Positions 11,310 to 21,009 of a stretch of DNA of 64,000 nucleotides are shown here, piece by piece; the stretch's first letter is position 1, and every line of letters starts with the position of its first letter. The position numbers and the translations under genes were made by a program. Origin of the DNA: Escherichia coli (GTDB lineage: Bacteria > Pseudomonadota > Gammaproteobacteria > Enterobacterales > Enterobacteriaceae). The stretch lies in the NCBI RefSeq assembly GCF_041248615.1, contig NZ_CP158426.1; one strand, written 5' to 3'. The notes below the pieces were generated by a model, which saw only the letters and a list, made by a program, of their open reading frames with translations, had not been told where the DNA came from and did not search any database.

Positions 11310-11684
11310 TTATGAGGTGGTTGCGGGTGCCAGTGTCGGATAAACAGCCATATAAACGTAACCACAGGAGCCGAGGGTGTCGGCTTCACAGGCCAGCCCC
11401 TTCGCATACAGTGTCACGGTATGCTGATGGCGGGGATTCAGTTCACCGCTGGTGAGCATGAGCTCCAGTTGTTTCATCAGCAGCGGAAAGGCCTGGTCCA
11501 GGTGGTACGCATCTGCATCGCTGAACAGGCCTCTGATACCGGCGCGGTCGGCAAGGTAATGCAACCGGTTACCCTCCTGCACCAGACGTGCCCCGAAACA
11601 GGGCGTCACGGTGCAGGGCAGCCCCCACCAGGGGCGGTCGTGATTGTCGTCGGGAAGTGTTGTCCCGGGGAGTGTGTCTGACAC
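11310..11684 (-). CDS. cbeA: antitoxin CbeA (YeeU family)
   Basis: 124-aa ORF MSDTLPGTT...HQHTVTLYAKGL... matches YeeU/CbeA; directly upstream of cbtA. Confidence 0.85.
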   Translation of the reverse strand: MSDTLPGTTLPDDNHDRPWWGLPCTVTPCFGARLVQEGNRLHYLADRAGIRGLFSDADAYHLDQAFPLLMKQLELMLTSGELNPRHQHTVTLYAKGLACEADTLGSCGYVYMAVYPTLAPATTS

Positions 11685-13936: not shown

Positions 13937-14026
13937 GATTTGCTCCTTATGAATGAGTTAGCGGTATAAATGAAAAAGCCGCGTCTTCTGGAGAAGACGC
14001 GGCCTGATGGATCAAGTGAATGACGT

Positions 14027-14260: not shown

Positions 14261-14330
14261 ATCTGTTGCTCCCTGAAAGTAAAAAGCCCCGGTCATGATG
14301 ACCGGGGCCTGAAGGAGAGTGACCTGATTA

Positions 14331-16448
14331 TCAGAAAGTCACATTCAGCGTGGCCTGACCGTTATAACCTTCAGCGCTGCTGCCGCTGACACTGTGGGCA
14401 TAACCGGCCTGAACGCCCAGGGTGATATTTTCCCGGACACGGGCTTCCAGTCCGGCCTGCAGGTCCAGTGACGTGCCATTCCGGGACGGTGAGAACGTCA
14501 TGTTACTGCCGGCGGCGGCTGTACCCATGCTCATGTCACCCCGGGAGCTGAAAGTGCGGATAACAGAAGGCTGTACCCACCAGTTCACCGGCAGTTCACT
14601 CACACGGTGTTTTGTACTGTCGCGCAGAGTGTCACGGGATGAGGTGCCTTCGCCAAAGGTCATATCGTTGTGGCTGCCCAGACGGAAGCCGGCACGCACA
14701 TGTTGTGTACTGCCATGCCCGAACTTCACATAACCGGCGTTATCCTGGCCGTCATCCAGGGAGAGCCCCTGCCAGGTGTACTGCAGTTGTGGCTCCAGCA
14801 TCAGGTTGTCAGTGATACTGAAGGGCAGACCGGTTTCCAGTGAGCCCAGCCAGCCCCAGCCCCGGGCGCGGAAGTCGTTATTGTCCGATGACGCTTTCAT
14901 GCTGTGGCGGGTTCCCTGTGCCACAATGTCAGCCCACAGGCCGGAGGACGTGTGTGTCAGATTCAGGTATCCGCCCAGGCTGCCGGCATCATCCCGGACC
15001 GTGCCGGCGCGGGAACCGTCATCATCCTTAACATCAACGGAAGAATGGCCTGCAGCACCATATACCCCTGTCGTCAGAGACATACCGGCAACCTCTGTTC
15101 TGAGCAGGTCACCCTCCAGATGGACGAAGCCATAGCTGCCGCTGCTTTCCGGCGTGGCTCCACGGGCAATACCGCCGTTGTTATCGTGACCGAGATGACC
15201 GCCCTGAATGCTGAGACGGACGCTGTTATTTTCACCGCTTACACCGGTCTGATGGCTGCGGGAGCCTGCCAGAATCCGGTCATAGTCCATTGCCTGTGTC
15301 AGCATGGAGGCATACAGGGGGACTTCAGCACGATAAGCATTTTCACTGCGCAGGTACCAGTCTTCATCGCTGTCACGGTTCAGGGTGTAGTTAAAGGCTC
15401 CGGCCTGAAGCGGGCGACTCAGGGCAAACGCACCTTCTTCTGTGGTGGCACCATTCTGTGCATCCACAACCCGGATACCCTGTCCGGAGGTTGCCACCCC
15501 GAGGTTACTGTTTCCGACATTTGTAAACGCAAGCCAGGTTTTGCCGGTTGCCTGACCACCATTAATCACCAGCTGGTCAGAGGTATTGCTGCCATCAAGG
15601 CGAACACGCATATTGATGGTGCCACCCTGACCGGTGAGGTTACTGGTTGTCAGTTTATGGAACGTTACCGGGGCGTTGCCTTTTGCAACAGCACGGCTCA
15701 GTACGGCATCCGGTGTTGTCTGATTGTCAAAGTAAATCTCCCCTGCGTTAACAATATCGCCGGTACTGACCACATCACCATTCAGTACCATGCTGGCGCC
15801 TTTACTGAGCTGTGTTCTGCCACTCAGACTTCCCCCGGCAGCCAGCATCAGTGTTCCACGATGTCCGACAGTGGTGTTGCTGGCCTGTCCCCCGGCATTA
15901 ACCGTAAAGCTGCCGCCATTTTCCAGCAGCAGGTCGCTGGCCTGACCGGATATGCCATCAATACTGAACTTACCGCTGGCATTGGTCCCCTCAACAGTGG
16001 CACCACTGTCTGCTATCAGGGCACCACCGGATGTCATGGTGACATCTGTTGCCTTACCACCGGCAGACACTGCCAGGGTACCGCCGTCATCCACCAGTGT
16101 TTTCTGCGCTGAATGGCCCTCCAGTACATCCAGGCGACCGCCGGACTCCAGAACAACGCCGTCAGCCTTACCGTTTTCCACTGTGAAATTGCCCAGACGG
16201 TTGCTGCCGGTGACGGTTGCCGCCGTACTGGTGACCAGTGCGCCGCCCTGCGTCAGGGTGACATTCGTGGCTGTACCACCGGCGTTCACCTGCAGTTTGC
16301 CTTTCTGGTTAACGGTGGTGAAATCCGCCAGACCACCTTCCTTGATAATCTGCCAGCCGTCACTGTTAACAACAGTGCCAGACGCCGTACCGCCGTTGTG
16401 CACATACTGGTACCCCCCATTCAGCGTGGTATCCAGTGCGTGACCATG
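14331..16448 (-). pseudogene. flu: antigen 43 (flu/agn43) autotransporter, distal portion (passenger remainder + beta-barrel), separated from its 5' end by an IS insertion
   Basis: Glycine/threonine-rich beta-helical repeats and autotransporter C-terminus ending ...ATLNVTF; continues upstream until the IS boundary at 16449. Confidence 0.8.
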
Positions 16449-16533
16449 TGCGTATTACCGTGAAGGAGATCGGTGAGTAACATCGATGGAGATCGGTTCG
16501 TGTCACTTTCACAGAACCGTTTTTAAATTACCT

Positions 16534-17283
16534 TCACTGATCTCCTTCGGTCAACGGAGATTGTATTTTCCGCATTGATTCTCCTTTAAGTTCGATCTTG
16601 ATACTGCCATGAACCAGTCGATCTAGGATGGCATCCGCATGTGTGGAGTCTCCGATCATTTTGTACCAGTTTTCCACCGGCAACTGGCTCACTACGATGA
16701 TTGAGCCTCGTTGGTACATCAGATCCACTATTTCCAGCAGGTCGCTACGCTGTTCTGATGAGAGAGGTTCCAGCCCCCAGTCATCCAGAAGCAGCAGATC
16801 GCTATTATTCAGCCTGGTCAAAAGTTTGCTGTATCTTCCATCAGCATGCCCCTGATAGCACTGTTCCATCAGCGCTTTAAGGCGATAATAGTAGACCTTG
16901 TATCCCTGTCGGCAGGCATTATGACCAAGTGCACATGCCAGGAACGTTTTACCGCTGCCGGTGGCCCCGGTCAGTAAAATATTTTGTTTCAGGGTTAACC
17001 AGTTTCCCTGACTGAGTGAACGGATGAGGGCCCTGTCCAGCCCTCTATTGTTACGATAATCCAGCTTTGATAACTCAGCATTAAGTCTGAACCGTGCATG
17101 TTTGATCAGACGCTCTGCCTTCCTGTTTTCACGGCAGGTTAGTTCTTCTGCTGTCAGTAATGACAGGCGTTCTTCGAAGCCCAGCTCCTGGTATGTGCCC
17201 GGCTGAGCAAGTTGCTTTTTAAGCGCATCACGGAAGCCGGTGAGTTTAAGTGCGGTCAGTTGTTCGTAAAGATGATTCATCAT
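16534..17283 (-). CDS. istB: IS21-family helper ATPase IstB
   Basis: 249-aa ORF with Walker A motif GATGSGKT. Confidence 0.85.
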   Translation of the reverse strand: MMNHLYEQLTALKLTGFRDALKKQLAQPGTYQELGFEERLSLLTAEELTCRENRKAERLIKHARFRLNAELSKLDYRNNRGLDRALIRSLSQGNWLTLKQNILLTGATGSGKTFLACALGHNACRQGYKVYYYRLKALMEQCYQGHADGRYSKLLTRLNNSDLLLLDDWGLEPLSSEQRSDLLEIVDLMYQRGSIIVVSQLPVENWYKMIGDSTHADAILDRLVHGSIKIELKGESMRKIQSPLTEGDQ

Positions 17284-17294
17284 TGGATCCCGTA

Positions 17295-18836
17295 TCAGTG
17301 GTAATACTCACTGCCGCGTACGTTTTCGTGTTCCATCGTGGATAACAGATCTGGTTTTGGATCCTGAACAGGTTGTTTATCCAGACCTTTTTCCAGGATC
17401 GATTTAATACCTGACAGACGCCATACCTTTGTTTTCAGAGCTCTTGCACATGCTGCATTAAGTCTGGCTTTACTGTATTTTTTATGAAGGTTCAGGAGTC
17501 CAAGGCAGAAGCGATAGCTTTGTTCCGGATGTGGACGAGAGTTCAGTATATGAAGCACATAACTATGAGTTTCACTGCCTATGTGCCCCGCCCATTCCAG
17601 AAGACGCTCTGGCGTCCAGGTGGCATGCTGTCGATGAGCTTCAGGCATGTGCTCGTTGCGGGTACTGTAGCCATAAGTACGCTTGCGCGGGTGCACAGCA
17701 ACCTCCTGCCCCTGATTGAAGAGTCTTACCAGTTCTCCGGAGATCCATGCTTCCAGTTGCTGGCCTAACAGCGAACATGGAACCGAGTAGTAATGTTTGT
17801 CGATTTCCACGTGGTAATCGGCATGAACTCTGACTTTCTTCACCAGGGTGTAACTGTAACTGGCTTCAGGAAGAGGCTTCAGTGCGGGTTTATCAAGCTG
17901 GATGAAGAGTTCTGCACGTGAATAACCCAACTTCTGCATTATTTTGTTATTCAGTCTTTCCAGCAACTCCCGAATGCGCTGATTAAGCGATGCAAGGCTG
18001 TAGAAGATCTCATGCCTGATTCGGGCCATGATCCAGCGTTCAACAACCTGAACGCCAACTTCAGCTTTGGCTTTATCTTTCGGTTTACGTGGCCGCGCAG
18101 GCAAAACTGCGACATTATAATGCTCAAGCATCTGCTGGTAGGTAGGGTTAACGTCAGGATCATACTTACATGCCCTGGATGTGGCGCTTTTCAGATTGTC
18201 CGGAACAACAAGTTCAGGAACGCCACCCAACCACTGGAAGCAGCGAACATGACTCATCACCCAGTCTTCAAGCTGCTGAGACCAGGTGGCCTCTGCCCAT
18301 GTGTAACTTGATGCCCCGAGAACAGCTACGATGACCTGAGCAGTTCTTATTTCTCCGGTCTCAGGGTCGGTAACGCCAACGGTAGGTCCACAGTAATCAA
18401 CGAAAAGTTTTTCGCCAGCTTTATGTACCTGACGCATTGATGGTGAAGTGGTTTTGAGCCATTCACGGTACATCCGGCAGTAATGGTTATAGCTGTAAAA
18501 ACCGCCTGGATTACGCTCACAGTATTCTTCCCAGAGTAGCTGCAGCGTCACGCATTTATTACGCAGTTCCCGGTGTACTGTAGCCCAGTCAGGCAGAGAG
18601 TGCTTCTTCATCTTAACCTGGGTCTGAAGGAACGCATGTTTTAGTTTTGTATCATCCCATCCTGTAGGTAAGGGCCACTGCTTTATGCCAAGTTGAGCCG
18701 CCCGATTAGCATATCTGGATACAACGGAAGGGGAGATTGCAAGACTACGACCAATTTGTCGATGGCTGAGTCCAACACCGTATTTAAGCCTAAGAATTTC
18801 TTTAAGTTTTCTCATAGAAATTGGAACTGTTGGCAT
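17295..18836 (-). CDS. istA: IS21-family transposase IstA
   Basis: 513-aa ORF with N-terminal HTH and DDE core; immediately upstream of istB. Confidence 0.85.
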   Translation of the reverse strand: MPTVPISMRKLKEILRLKYGVGLSHRQIGRSLAISPSVVSRYANRAAQLGIKQWPLPTGWDDTKLKHAFLQTQVKMKKHSLPDWATVHRELRNKCVTLQLLWEEYCERNPGGFYSYNHYCRMYREWLKTTSPSMRQVHKAGEKLFVDYCGPTVGVTDPETGEIRTAQVIVAVLGASSYTWAEATWSQQLEDWVMSHVRCFQWLGGVPELVVPDNLKSATSRACKYDPDVNPTYQQMLEHYNVAVLPARPRKPKDKAKAEVGVQVVERWIMARIRHEIFYSLASLNQRIRELLERLNNKIMQKLGYSRAELFIQLDKPALKPLPEASYSYTLVKKVRVHADYHVEIDKHYYSVPCSLLGQQLEAWISGELVRLFNQGQEVAVHPRKRTYGYSTRNEHMPEAHRQHATWTPERLLEWAGHIGSETHSYVLHILNSRPHPEQSYRFCLGLLNLHKKYSKARLNAACARALKTKVWRLSGIKSILEKGLDKQPVQDPKPDLLSTMEHENVRGSEYYH

Positions 18837-19029
18837 AGGTATCCTTTACCGGAATGGCAAAAGATACAGATCAACACACCTGTGAAGTTCCAATAACATT
18901 GATGGAGATCACTGAATAACAAAATGAGTCAAAAGTGATCTCCATCGATGTTATTCAGCGATCTGTTCAAATGTTATTACCCGATCTCGATGGAAGTTAT
19001 TGAGTGATCTCCTTTCATGAAAATACGCA

Positions 19030-19764
19030 ACCATGTACAGTCTGGTCGCCGCCGGCATAAACCACAGTGGTATTTGCCGTTCCTTCAGCAGCCACAATCT
19101 GACGACCATTTTTATTGATGGTGGTGCGTACGGCATCTCCGTAGACGGTCTGCCCGGTATCACCATTTTCCGCATCCGGTCCCCCTTCCGCGCCGGTATT
19201 CACAACCGTGTCGGTTGCCACTGCGCCGGATTTGACGGCCTGCCAGCCCTTCTCATTAATGACGGTACCCGTTGCAATCCCGCCTTCATGTACCCACTGC
19301 TCACCGCCGTTCAGCGTGGTGTTCACTGCCTGCCCCTGAAGGCTCTGTCCGCCTCCGGCACTGATAACCGTGTCTGAAACGCTTCCTCCGGCATTCACTC
19401 TCTGAAGACCACCACCGGTGACAGTAGTGTTGTTGGCGATACCGCCATTTTGTATCCATTGCCCGCCGGTATTGACCTCGTTATCCGGCCCATACTCCAG
19501 CCCGGTACTGATGGTCATTCCGTTGGTCGTACCGAAGACAATCTGGTTGTCATGATTTTCCAGTGCTCCGCCGCTCACGGTTTCTCCCGCCTGTACAACC
19601 GTGTCAGCAGCCAGTGCCGGGACTGATGTGACAGCAGCAAGAGACAGCGCAACCGCCACACCGGCGCGTTTTCCCCGTGAGCGGGCCAGTTCGGAGGCCA
19701 CCACCAGGGTGCCCGTAATGTGATTCCATACCAGCCTGTAGCTGGTGTTCAGATGTCGTTTCAT
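19030..19764 (-). pseudogene. flu: antigen 43 (flu/agn43), 5' portion (signal peptide + start of passenger)
   Basis: MKRHLNTSYRLVWNHITGTLVVASELARSRGKRAGVAV... is the Ag43 signal peptide region; frame runs into the IS21-family element. Confidence 0.8.
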
Positions 19765-19981
19765 CAGCTTTTCCTTACAGAGGGTGAATAAAAAAGCCGG
19801 TACCCACAAATGTGGATACCGGCAGGTACAAAACAGCATGGTCAGATAAAGTGTTTTTTCCCGGACATAAATGCTTCCCCTCTCTCATCCGCCAGAGAAG
19901 TATCAGTCCGTTGTGTGCAATTCCGTTCTGCATGATGAAGAGATTCAGCTGCCTTTTCGCAGGCCATTAACCACTATAAAC

Positions 19982-20017
19982 GATCGATTGTGACGATCGA
20001 TACCTGTTTTATCGATC
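19982..20017. promoter_or_regulatory. cluster of three GATC (Dam) sites upstream of agn43: phase-variation switch (Dam/OxyR)
   Basis: cGATCgattgtgacGATCgatacctgttttatcGATCg, about 220-250 bp upstream of the Ag43 start codon, matching the known agn43 regulatory region. Confidence 0.55.
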
Positions 20018-20136
20018 GTTTTATTCTATTAATAACAAGGCAGCCACGCAAGAGAAACAGGAGGAGTATGAGGGGTTTGTGTCATGTTTTCAGTTGGTTA
20101 ACGCAATGTAATCAGGCATTTCCTCTGGCAGAGTGT

Positions 20137-21009
20137 TCAGAAGAAAATCCAGTTCCATACCGCGCGGGCAACAGAGACCACGGTGTCACGGACGGCACGC
20201 AGAACCGTACGAGCCACAGAGGCAACACAGACGCTCTCCGCCGTGTCAAATATCCGGTCCACCGCACCGGTAAACTGTTCACGGGCCTGCCCCCGGACAG
20301 ATTCCGTGCACAGCTCGTCCTGCAGGCGGGTCATCAGGGGACTGGCGGCATGGTCGGGAAGTGCTGTCATGAGCGCACTGACCAGCGTATCCAGTTCCCA
20401 GCCGGTGCGGGCCGATACGGCCACAACCGGATGTACGGGCCGGAACAGCCGGAATACCGCATCTGTTTTCTCACGAATGTTCTGTTCCTGTGCGGGAGAA
20501 GGCTGAATACCTGCCATATCCCATTCATGGCAGGGCTCCGTTTTGTCGGCCTGCGTCACCACAAACAGCACCTGCTGATGTCCCCGGTGCAGGATGTGTC
20601 GCCAGAAATAGTCATCCACAGACAGGGCCCGGTCATCGGCTTTAATCAGCCACAGTACCAGGTCAAGTTCAGGCAGAATGTCACGGTACAGGGCTTCATA
20701 CTCTGCATCCCTGTCCCGGCTCTCGCCCACCCCGGGCAGGTCAGTGATAACCATGCTGTGACCATGGCCACTCAGACGGAAGCGCTGCACTTCCCGGGTG
20801 CCGGCGTGAACATCACTGACCGGGGTGACCTCCCCCTGAAACAGTGCATTACAGAGTGAGGATTTACCGGCCCCGCTTTTTCCCATAATGCCAATCACGG
20901 GTTCGTGGCTGGTGAGTTTGCGCAGATGTTCCAGGATGTGACGGGAAAGTGAGTAAGGCAGGGAGGAGAGCGGTTTTTCAATTGCCTCAATGGCATCAGA
21001 CGGATTCAT
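20137..21009 (-). CDS. YeeP/YkfA-family GTPase
   Basis: P-loop GKSGAGKSS; start trimmed to internal Met, alternative start at 21072; position upstream of agn43 as in CP4-44. Confidence 0.75.
   Translation of the reverse strand: MNPSDAIEAIEKPLSSLPYSLSRHILEHLRKLTSHEPVIGIMGKSGAGKSSLCNALFQGEVTPVSDVHAGTREVQRFRLSGHGHSMVITDLPGVGESRDRDAEYEALYRDILPELDLVLWLIKADDRALSVDDYFWRHILHRGHQQVLFVVTQADKTEPCHEWDMAGIQPSPAQEQNIREKTDAVFRLFRPVHPVVAVSARTGWELDTLVSALMTALPDHAASPLMTRLQDELCTESVRGQAREQFTGAVDRIFDTAESVCVASVARTVLRAVRDTVVSVARAVWNWIFF

What the first reader, a model, noticed from the sequence alone, without database searches (positions are those of the whole stretch)
19975..20025. Intact agn43 Dam/OxyR phase-variation switch retained upstream of an IS-disrupted gene
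Three GATC sites in the characteristic arrangement lie upstream of the Ag43 start, but the coding sequence is split by an IS21-family insertion (16449-19029). The epigenetic switch therefore now governs a truncated product of about 240 aa (signal peptide plus start of the passenger), or nothing.
Basis: partly seen in the sequence, partly recalled or inferred. Interest (0 to 1): 0.45.

Follow-up and report, generated by a model that had tools for sequence, protein, structure and literature searches.

The report
Ag43 methylation switch before IS-broken gene
The well-known Dam/OxyR on-off switch of the E. coli adhesin gene agn43 is intact here, but a recent ISEc12 insertion has split the gene behind it; this is an ordinary pseudogene, not a new system.

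Summary
Three GATC sites (19982, 19995, 20014) lie 218-253 bp upstream of an Ag43/Cah-family start codon (ATG 19764, minus strand). Their 19/13-bp spacing matches the characterised K-12 agn43 operator and eight other alleles. The arrangement occurs once in the window and in none of 100 shuffles. The region is 100% identical to the one upstream of intact 948-aa genes in strains TUM9803 and BEN5202. It also matches the Rfam IS102/IsrC leader RNA, which ends in a strong terminator before the ATG.

The coding sequence is split by a complete ISEc12 (IS21 family, 16449-19029, 2581 bp, TG..CA ends, 6-bp target duplication). This leaves a 249-codon ORF (245 native residues plus 4 from the IS) and a 705-codon 3' fragment with no other lesion.

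The window is E. coli NRZ14408 (LT599825.1:928001-992000). Only this genome among 5,426 carries this junction, so the insertion is recent.

- The switch still controls the IsrC leader RNA.
- ISEc12 points the same way as agn43, so ON-phase read-through could enter istAB. This is untested.

The genome also holds a second copy of the switch elsewhere. All components are already known; interest is low.

The parts
19982..20017 (-). Three Dam target sites (GATC-I 20014-20017, GATC-II 19995-19998, GATC-III 19982-19985), taken to be the OxyR operator of the agn43 switch
   Evidence: The 19/13 spacing is the same in K-12 and in all 9 other alleles sampled. The GATCs are invariant while the spacers between them vary.
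20023..20051 (-). Putative sigma-70 promoter: -35 TTGCGT (20046-20051), 17-bp spacer, -10 TAGAAT (20023-20028)
   Evidence: Read from the sequence. CTCTTG and AATAGAATAAAACGATC are conserved with K-12 in the ungapped alignment. The strict consensus scan did not report it, so this assignment is inferred.
19783..20019 (-). agn43 leader RNA, equivalent to the IsrC / IS102 sRNA
   Evidence: Rfam RF00124, 70.4 bits (gathering score 46), full model 1-206. Predicted fold z-score -2.84.
19796..19823 (-). Intrinsic terminator/attenuator hairpin (12 pairs, 8 G-C) followed by a T run, about 30 nt upstream of the ATG
19015..19764 (-). Truncated 5' Ag43 ORF, 249 codons plus stop. 19030-19764 is native (245 aa: ESPR signal peptide and start of the passenger). 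The last 4 codons (CVFS) and the TGA lie in the IS left end.
   Evidence: NCBIfam NF033177 positions 1-246 of 948. RefSeq annotates it as a pseudogene.
16449..19029 (-). ISEc12 (IS21 family), 2581 bp, complete, in the same orientation as agn43, with its left end (L-TIR) next to the 5' Ag43 fragment
   Evidence: 99.96% identical to the copy in strain Ecol_AZ162.
17295..18836 (-). istA transposase, 513 aa
   Evidence: NF033546, 310 bits (cut-off 160). RefSeq WP_001298859.1.
16534..17283 (-). istB helper ATPase (RefSeq start at 17280)
   Evidence: NF038214, 270 bits (cut-off 200). RefSeq WP_001016257.1.
19030..19035 (.). Target-site duplication, upstream copy (ACCATG on the plus strand, CATGGT in gene orientation)
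   Evidence: The intact allele carries a single copy.
16443..16448 (.). Target-site duplication, downstream copy
14331..16448 (-). 3' Ag43 fragment: 705 codons open to the natural stop (rest of the passenger plus the beta-barrel), with no start codon or signal peptide
   Evidence: frame 1, only the terminal stop. NF033177 positions 244-948, 1476 bits.
14284..14310 (-). Intrinsic terminator directly after the Ag43 stop codon
20137..21009 (-). Upstream neighbour: GTPase-family gene (YeeP-like), which bounds the regulatory intergenic region
   Evidence: 95% identical to the K-12 yeeP remnant.

Best explanation
This is the standard Dam/OxyR epigenetic phase-variation switch of an Ag43/Cah-family autotransporter gene. 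It sits in a pheV-tRNA genomic island of E. coli NRZ14408, upstream of a gene recently inactivated by ISEc12.

Mechanism, taken from the published K-12, CFT073 and EC958 work:
- OxyR binds the unmethylated operator that spans the three GATC sites at the start of the transcribed leader. This represses the promoter and shields the sites from Dam (OFF).
- If Dam methylates the sites after replication, OxyR cannot bind and transcription proceeds (ON).
- Both states are heritable.

Consequences in this locus:
- The promoter, operator, leader RNA (IsrC) and attenuator terminator are base-for-base the same as upstream of intact genes. The switch should therefore still toggle and still give phase-variable IsrC leader RNA.
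- Transcripts that pass the attenuator encode only a 249-aa protein: the signal peptide plus about 193 residues of passenger. It lacks the beta-barrel, so it cannot reach the cell surface. It is probably exported to the periplasm and degraded.
- Transcription then runs into ISEc12 in the sense direction.

Shown here: the anatomy, the homology, the identity to intact alleles, the IS boundaries and the reading frames. Inferred: OxyR binding, actual ON/OFF switching in this strain, and the fate of the truncated protein.
For: - GATC triplet with K-12 spacing: once in the window, 0 of 100 shuffles.
- All 10 alleles sampled keep the three GATCs at 19/13 spacing while the spacers vary. The sample includes K-12 agn43, O157:H7 cah, ST131 cah and O104:H4.
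- The 441-bp regulatory region is 100% identical to TUM9803, where it precedes an intact 948-aa gene. The 1111 bp of regulatory region plus 5' coding sequence is 100% identical to BEN5202.
- Rfam IS102/IsrC match, with the terminator.
- The Ag43 profile is split 1-246 / 244-948 across the two fragments, and the 3' frame is open.
- ISEc12 has intact istA and istB, TG..CA inverted repeats and a target duplication.
- Literature: Dam/OxyR mechanism at three GATC sites (PMC4872104, PMC3764049, PMC2909390). An oxyR mutation derepresses agn43 121-fold in ST131 EC958 (PMC4807369); a sampled ST131 genome (strain 5506) carries this operator type. IsrC is listed as 'flu gene attenuation' (PMC5811629).
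Against: - No methylation, binding or transcript data exist for this strain.
- The GATC-I to GATC-II spacer of this common allele type differs from K-12: GATAAAACAGGTATC against AATATCTATTTTATC. The match to the Toledano OxyR consensus is only 13 of 20 specified positions, against 14 of 20 for K-12. Operator function in this exact allele therefore rests on homology and on work with related alleles.
- The strict promoter scan found no sigma-70 consensus here.
- The transcription start is unsettled. The Rfam model starts at 20019. The 5' RACE position reported for EC958 (228 bp upstream of the ATG, PMC4807369) would fall near 19992, between GATC-II and GATC-III.
Confidence: 0.88

Rival explanations
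1. The switch has been co-opted. Because ISEc12 lies in the sense orientation directly behind the phase-variable promoter, ON-phase cells transcribe istA-istB. Transposase level, and so transposition, would become an epigenetically heritable ON/OFF trait.
For: The IS and agn43 are co-oriented, and the L-TIR (the istA side) abuts the 5' fragment. No minus-strand intrinsic terminator is predicted between 19764 and 16300. Only 178 nt separate the truncated ORF's stop (19015) from the istA ATG (18836). A single IS21's own promoter is weak, and expression and transposition rise when a -35 is supplied upstream of the L-TIR (PMC10122671).
Against: The leader attenuator (19796-19823) stops an unknown share of transcripts. 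Rho-dependent polarity after the premature stop is possible. IstA bound to the L-TIR repeats may block read-through (PMC10122671 proposes that it occludes the promoter). There are no expression data. This would be an accident of one insertion seen in 1 of 5,426 genomes, not an evolved arrangement.
Confidence: 0.12
2. The GATC cluster in this allele is a decayed, non-functional relic: OxyR no longer binds, or the promoter is dead.
For: The downstream gene is dead, so selection on the switch is relaxed. The GATC-I to GATC-II spacer differs from K-12, and the OxyR consensus match is modest.
Against: The sequence is identical to that upstream of intact genes in other strains. The same operator type occurs at 95-99% identity in 2,391 genomes. 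The insertion is unique to this genome, and the 5' flank (regulatory region plus 5' coding sequence, 1111 bp) is 100% identical to the intact BEN5202 allele, which leaves no time for decay.
Confidence: 0.05
3. The IS insertion is an assembly artefact: a multi-copy IS placed wrongly in the finished chromosome.
For: ISEc12 is probably multi-copy in this genome: the junction query, which also matches Ag43 paralogs, hits 6 places in the record.
Against: The insert is bounded by exact IS termini and a clean direct duplication of the target. The two gene halves abut perfectly once the IS and one duplication copy are removed. That is the signature of transposition, not of misjoining. The window matches the deposited chromosome 100% over 12.3 kb.
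Confidence: 0.03

Closest known systems
E. coli K-12 agn43 (flu) Dam/OxyR phase-variation switch in the yeeP-flu intergenic region of CP4-44
   Same: Three GATC sites at 19/13-bp spacing. Conserved -35 TTG, -10 TAGAAT and bases around each GATC. The same flanking genes (GTPase yeeP upstream, Ag43 downstream). A leader RNA with a terminator before the ATG.
   Different: The spacers between the GATCs differ. The leader is 31 nt longer (GATC-I to ATG is 253 bp against 222 bp) and diverges in its middle. The gene behind it is a 948-aa Cah-type allele, not the 1039-aa K-12 protein, and here it is IS-disrupted.
Ag43/Cah alleles of pathogenic E. coli (O157:H7 cah, ST131 and CFT073 agn43 alleles)
   Same: The same operator type, with the GATC-I to GATC-II spacer GATAAAACAGGTATC and the same 252-253 bp distance to the ATG. 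In EC958 this locus is strongly derepressed in an oxyR mutant (PMC4807369).
   Different: The GATC-II to GATC-III spacer is GTCACAATC here, against GTTACCATC, GTTTATATC and others. There are no yeeR-irmA genes downstream; a terminator follows the stop codon and then a DUF905 gene.
ISEc12 gene disruptions in E. coli, such as tssM in ST131 clade C (PMC10711316)
   Same: The same IS (99.96% identical to another copy), with simple insertional inactivation of a surface or secretion gene.
   Different: The target duplication here is 6 bp (CATGGT), against the 5 bp reported for tssM and seen in Ecol_AZ162 (GGCAC). This insertion is found in one genome only.
IsrC / IS102 sRNA (Rfam RF00124)
   Same: Full-length match above the gathering score, covering the 5' hairpin formed by GATC-II and GATC-III and the 3' terminator.
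   Different: The central part is poorly conserved and about 30 nt longer than the model.

Membership tests
agn43 Dam/OxyR phase-variation switch | Three GATC sites clustered within about 36 bp at fixed 19/13-bp spacing | tested here: met
agn43 Dam/OxyR phase-variation switch | Position between the yeeP-like GTPase gene and an Ag43-family ORF, at the start of a long leader about 220-250 bp upstream of the ATG | tested here: met
agn43 Dam/OxyR phase-variation switch | Sequence homology to the experimentally characterised K-12 regulatory region | tested here: met
   Ungapped alignment conserves the -35, the -10 and all three GATC contexts. Rfam IS102 scores 70.4 bits. The spacers are not conserved.
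agn43 Dam/OxyR phase-variation switch | Match to the OxyR tetramer consensus (ATAGnTnnnAnCTAT-N7-ATAGnTnnnAnCTAT) | tested here: inconclusive
   Best score is 13 of 20 here against 14 of 20 for K-12, at different registers. The consensus discriminates poorly even for the proven K-12 site.
agn43 Dam/OxyR phase-variation switch | OxyR binds only the unmethylated site, bound OxyR blocks Dam, and the ON/OFF states are heritable | not testable with these tools
   Needs methylome, footprint or reporter data.
agn43 Dam/OxyR phase-variation switch | dam and oxyR present in the same genome | not tested
   Both are core E. coli genes (general knowledge). They lie outside the window and were not looked up.
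Ag43/Cah family autotransporter (NCBIfam NF033177) | Full-length match to the 948-position profile above the 1200-bit cut-off in one polypeptide | tested here: not met
   The match is split: the 5' ORF covers positions 1-246 (494 bits) and the 3' fragment covers 244-948 (1477 bits). The sequence is of Ag43 origin, but the gene is a pseudogene.
IS21 family (ISEc12) | istA (DDE transposase) followed by istB (AAA+ helper), TG..CA termini, multiple terminal repeats, short target duplication | tested here: met
   The target duplication is 6 bp, within the family range but 1 bp longer than the 5 bp usual for ISEc12.
IsrC / IS102 RNA (RF00124) | Covariance-model score above the gathering threshold, with a 3' intrinsic terminator | tested here: met
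   70.4 bits against 46. Terminator at 19796-19823.

The most novel reading that the evidence does not exclude
The intact epigenetic switch now acts as a phase-variable external promoter for the co-oriented ISEc12 istAB operon. OxyR-free, Dam-methylated (ON) lineages would then inherit higher transposase expression and IS activity than OFF lineages. That would be an accidental example of epigenetically bistable transposition.
Probability: 0.1. Interest if true: 0.5.

Novelty: already known. Interest (0 to 1): 0.15.

Why it matters
The practical value is mainly for annotation and phenotype prediction. This copy of Ag43 cannot contribute to autoaggregation or biofilm formation in NRZ14408, even though its regulatory region looks perfect. 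In methylome data its three GATCs should still appear as a non-methylated or mixed site, which could be mistaken for evidence of an active adhesin. The locus offers a natural test of whether the switch and the IsrC leader run independently of the Ag43 protein, and of whether a phase-variable promoter can drive an IS21-family transposase. Neither question is a major open problem.

Tried and rejected
- The MAFFT alignment of the K-12 and window regulatory regions placed a 13-nt gap and mis-paired the GATC sites. It was replaced by an ungapped alignment anchored on GATC-I, which shows identical spacing.
- OxyR consensus scoring was uninformative. The proven K-12 site scores only 14 of 20.
- The strict sigma-70 scan found no promoter in 19700-20200. 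The -35 and -10 were assigned by conservation with K-12 instead.
- A hybrid promoter at the Ag43/L-TIR junction (flank -35 plus IS -10 TATTTT) was considered. By eye no -35-like hexamer sits at 16-18 bp, and one search found none, so it was rejected.
- Co-transcription of downstream island genes with agn43, as for agn43-yeeR-irmA in UPEC (PMC4807369), was considered. It is judged unlikely here because a strong terminator follows the Ag43 stop and yeeR/irmA are absent.
- The primary K-12 papers could not be read: Wallecha 2002 (PMC135096), Kaminska 2010 (PMC2838033) and Wallecha 2014 (PMC4135670) are not held. Footprint limits and the K-12 +1 position are therefore not cited.
- One literature search ('IsrC' + 'flu') was wasted on ISRCTN trial numbers.
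- The second copy of the switch in NRZ14408 could not be located, because the search tool lists only the best place per record.

Full report
**Observation.** GATC occurs at window 19982, 19995 and 20014, inside the stated 19975-20025. On the minus strand, which is the gene orientation, the sequence is AACGATCGATAAAACAGGTATCGATCGTCACAATCGATCGTTTATAG. The start-to-start spacing is 19 and 13 bp. The pattern GATC-N15-GATC-N9-GATC occurs once in the 64-kb window and in none of 100 dinucleotide-preserving shuffles. The nearest other GATC sites are at 19006 and 21479. The cluster is therefore real and not a chance event.

**What the switch belongs to.**
- The minus-strand ORF starts at ATG 19764 and reads MKRHLNTSYRLVWNHITGTLVVASELARSRG....
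- It matches positions 1-246 of the 948-position NCBIfam Ag43/Cah profile NF033177.
- RefSeq calls it an 'ESPR-type extended signal peptide-containing protein' pseudogene.
- The upstream neighbour (20137-21009, minus strand) is the YeeP-like GTPase gene, as in K-12 CP4-44.
- The three GATCs lie 218-253 bp upstream of the ATG.

**Comparison with the known regulatory region.**
- MAFFT mis-aligned K-12 by inserting a 13-nt gap. An ungapped alignment anchored on the first GATC shows that K-12 W3110 has the same 19/13 spacing. It also shares CTCTTG (-35 region), AATAGAATAAAACGATC (-10 TAGAAT plus GATC-I), TATCGATCGT (GATC-II) and ATCGATCG (GATC-III).
- Ten alleles were compared: the window, TUM9803, K-12, Ecol_AZ162, O157:H7 cah, ST131 cah, NCTC9008, O104:H4, 08_4358 and Z226-7 agn43. 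All keep the three GATCs at that spacing, while the spacers between them vary.
- Rfam RF00124 (IS102, that is IsrC) matches 19783-20019 on the minus strand at 70.4 bits, against a gathering score of 46. The match starts 2 nt before GATC-I. It ends at a 12-pair terminator hairpin (19796-19823) followed by a T run.
- IsrC is listed in the literature as 'flu gene attenuation' (PMC5811629). From my own memory, Wallecha et al. 2014 described a functional rho-independent terminator just upstream of the agn43 start codon. That paper could not be opened here.

**Is the switch intact?**
- The 441 bp from 19700 to 20140 are 100% identical to strain TUM9803, where they precede an undisrupted 948-aa Ag43/Cah gene.
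- The 1111 bp of regulatory region plus 5' coding sequence are 100% identical to BEN5202, also annotated as intact.
- The exact 65-bp core occurs in about ten complete genomes. The same operator type occurs at 95-99% identity in 2,391 genomes.
- The switch is therefore as intact as any natural one.

**The published mechanism.** Dam methylation of the three GATCs prevents OxyR binding (ON). OxyR bound to the unmethylated sites represses transcription and blocks Dam (OFF). Both states are heritable (PMC4872104, PMC3764049, PMC2909390). In ST131 strain EC958 an oxyR mutation raises agn43 transcription 121-fold (PMC4807369). A sampled ST131 genome (strain 5506) carries the window's operator type, so EC958 probably does too.

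**The disruption.**
- Against the intact TUM9803 locus, the window aligns as 27140-19030 and 16449-10113, with a short overlap at the join.
- The insert, 16449-19029 (2581 bp), has TG..CA termini, 16-nt terminal inverted repeats extending to about 53 nt, and several GATC-bearing internal repeats.
- It carries istA (17295-18836, 513 aa; NF033546 at 310 bits against a cut-off of 160) and istB (16534-17283; NF038214 at 270 bits against a cut-off of 200). RefSeq names it ISEc12.
- The target duplication is CATGGT in gene orientation. That is 6 bp, or 7 if the ambiguous terminal A is counted. ISEc12 elsewhere makes 5-bp duplications (PMC10711316; GGCAC in Ecol_AZ162).
- The 5' ORF runs 245 native codons, then CVFS and a TGA inside the IS left end, giving 249 aa with the stop at 19015-19017.
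- The 3' fragment (14331-16448) is open for 705 codons to the natural stop and matches profile positions 244-948. The IS is therefore the only lesion.

**Origin and age of the insertion.**
- The window is LT599825.1:928001-992000, the chromosome of E. coli NRZ14408.
- The locus lies in a pheV tRNA-Phe island that also carries kps capsule genes.
- Only this genome among 5,426 has this junction, and the 5' flank is identical to intact alleles, so the insertion is recent.
- The clean target duplication argues against a misassembly.

**What the switch now governs.**
- The promoter-proximal product, the IsrC leader, is untouched and should remain phase-variable.
- Read-through transcripts encode a 249-aa protein consisting of the signal peptide plus an N-terminal piece of the passenger, without the translocator barrel. 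By general autotransporter biology it cannot be displayed on the surface and is probably degraded in the periplasm. This is inference.
- ISEc12 lies in the same orientation as agn43, with its left end next to the 5' fragment. No minus-strand intrinsic terminator is predicted between 19764 and 16300. Only 178 nt separate the premature stop from the istA ATG.
- A single IS21's own promoter is weak and is strengthened by upstream promoter elements (PMC10122671). ON-phase read-through into istAB is therefore conceivable. It is untested, and I put it at about 10%.
- Transcription should not reach the downstream island genes as part of an agn43 operon. A strong terminator (14284-14310) follows the Ag43 stop, and the yeeR-irmA genes co-transcribed with agn43 in UPEC (PMC4807369) are absent.

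**Open points.**
- The transcription start is not fixed. The Rfam model begins at 20019. The EC958 5' RACE position (228 bp upstream of the ATG, PMC4807369) would map near 19992, between GATC-II and GATC-III.
- The OxyR consensus match is modest here (13 of 20) and also in K-12 (14 of 20), so it says little either way.
- NRZ14408 holds a second place matching both the 65-bp core and the 1111-bp query. The strain may therefore keep another phase-variable Ag43. I could not locate that copy.

**Verdict.** All components are already known: the agn43 Dam/OxyR switch, the IsrC leader, an Ag43/Cah allele and ISEc12. The arrangement is a recent, strain-specific pseudogenisation, and interest is low.

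Noticed in passing
window 18869-19009 (ISEc12 left end) and 16468-16542 (right end): The IS ends are packed with GATC sites: six in 141 bp at the left end, four of them exactly 23 bp apart (18937, 18960, 18983, 19006), and three at the right end. Most sit inside repeated GGAGATC(A/G) motifs that look like the multiple IstA-binding terminal repeats. Dam methylation might therefore affect IstA binding or IS activity, as it does for IS10 and IS50. This is speculation.
   Followed up: partly
L004 (NZ_CP019015.1, Ecol_AZ162) 5208-7788, and hits H32-H43: Twelve other complete genomes have ISEc12 inserted in the same orientation in the N-terminal passenger region of an Ag43-family gene, at other positions. 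The Ecol_AZ162 group has it 57 bp further downstream with a 5-bp duplication GGCAC. The spans of H32, H36, H37 and H43 suggest further sites. This points to recurrent independent ISEc12 hits on Ag43 genes.
   Followed up: partly
NZ_LT599825.1, outside the window: The record holds a second place matching both the 65-bp switch core and the 1111-bp regulatory-plus-5'-coding query. NRZ14408 therefore has another Ag43-family copy with its own switch. Its position and whether it is intact are unknown.
   Followed up: no
window 14284-14310 (-) and 13976-14005 (-): Strong intrinsic terminators lie directly after the Ag43 stop codon and after the DUF905 gene. In this allele agn43 is therefore probably monocistronic, unlike the agn43-yeeR-irmA operon of UPEC.
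   Followed up: partly
window 1-43827: The locus lies in a pheV (tRNA-Phe, 43752-43827) island. The island has a tyrosine integrase (42292-43554), a kps group-2 capsule cluster (308-8228), a CbtA/CbeA toxin-antitoxin pair (10886-11684), and a graveyard of IS fragments at 31-42 kb (IS1414, ISEc38, IS2-like, IS3-family).
   Followed up: no
window 42106-42195 (+): A 90-bp remnant annotated as a phosphoethanolamine transferase (N-terminus missing) lies between an IS3-family pseudogene and the island integrase. It was not examined further.
   Followed up: no
window 19981-20020: GATC-II and GATC-III are each part of a CGATCG palindrome. In the Rfam IS102 model and in the predicted fold they pair with each other as the first hairpin of the leader RNA. 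The same bases therefore serve as DNA operator and as RNA stem.
   Followed up: partly
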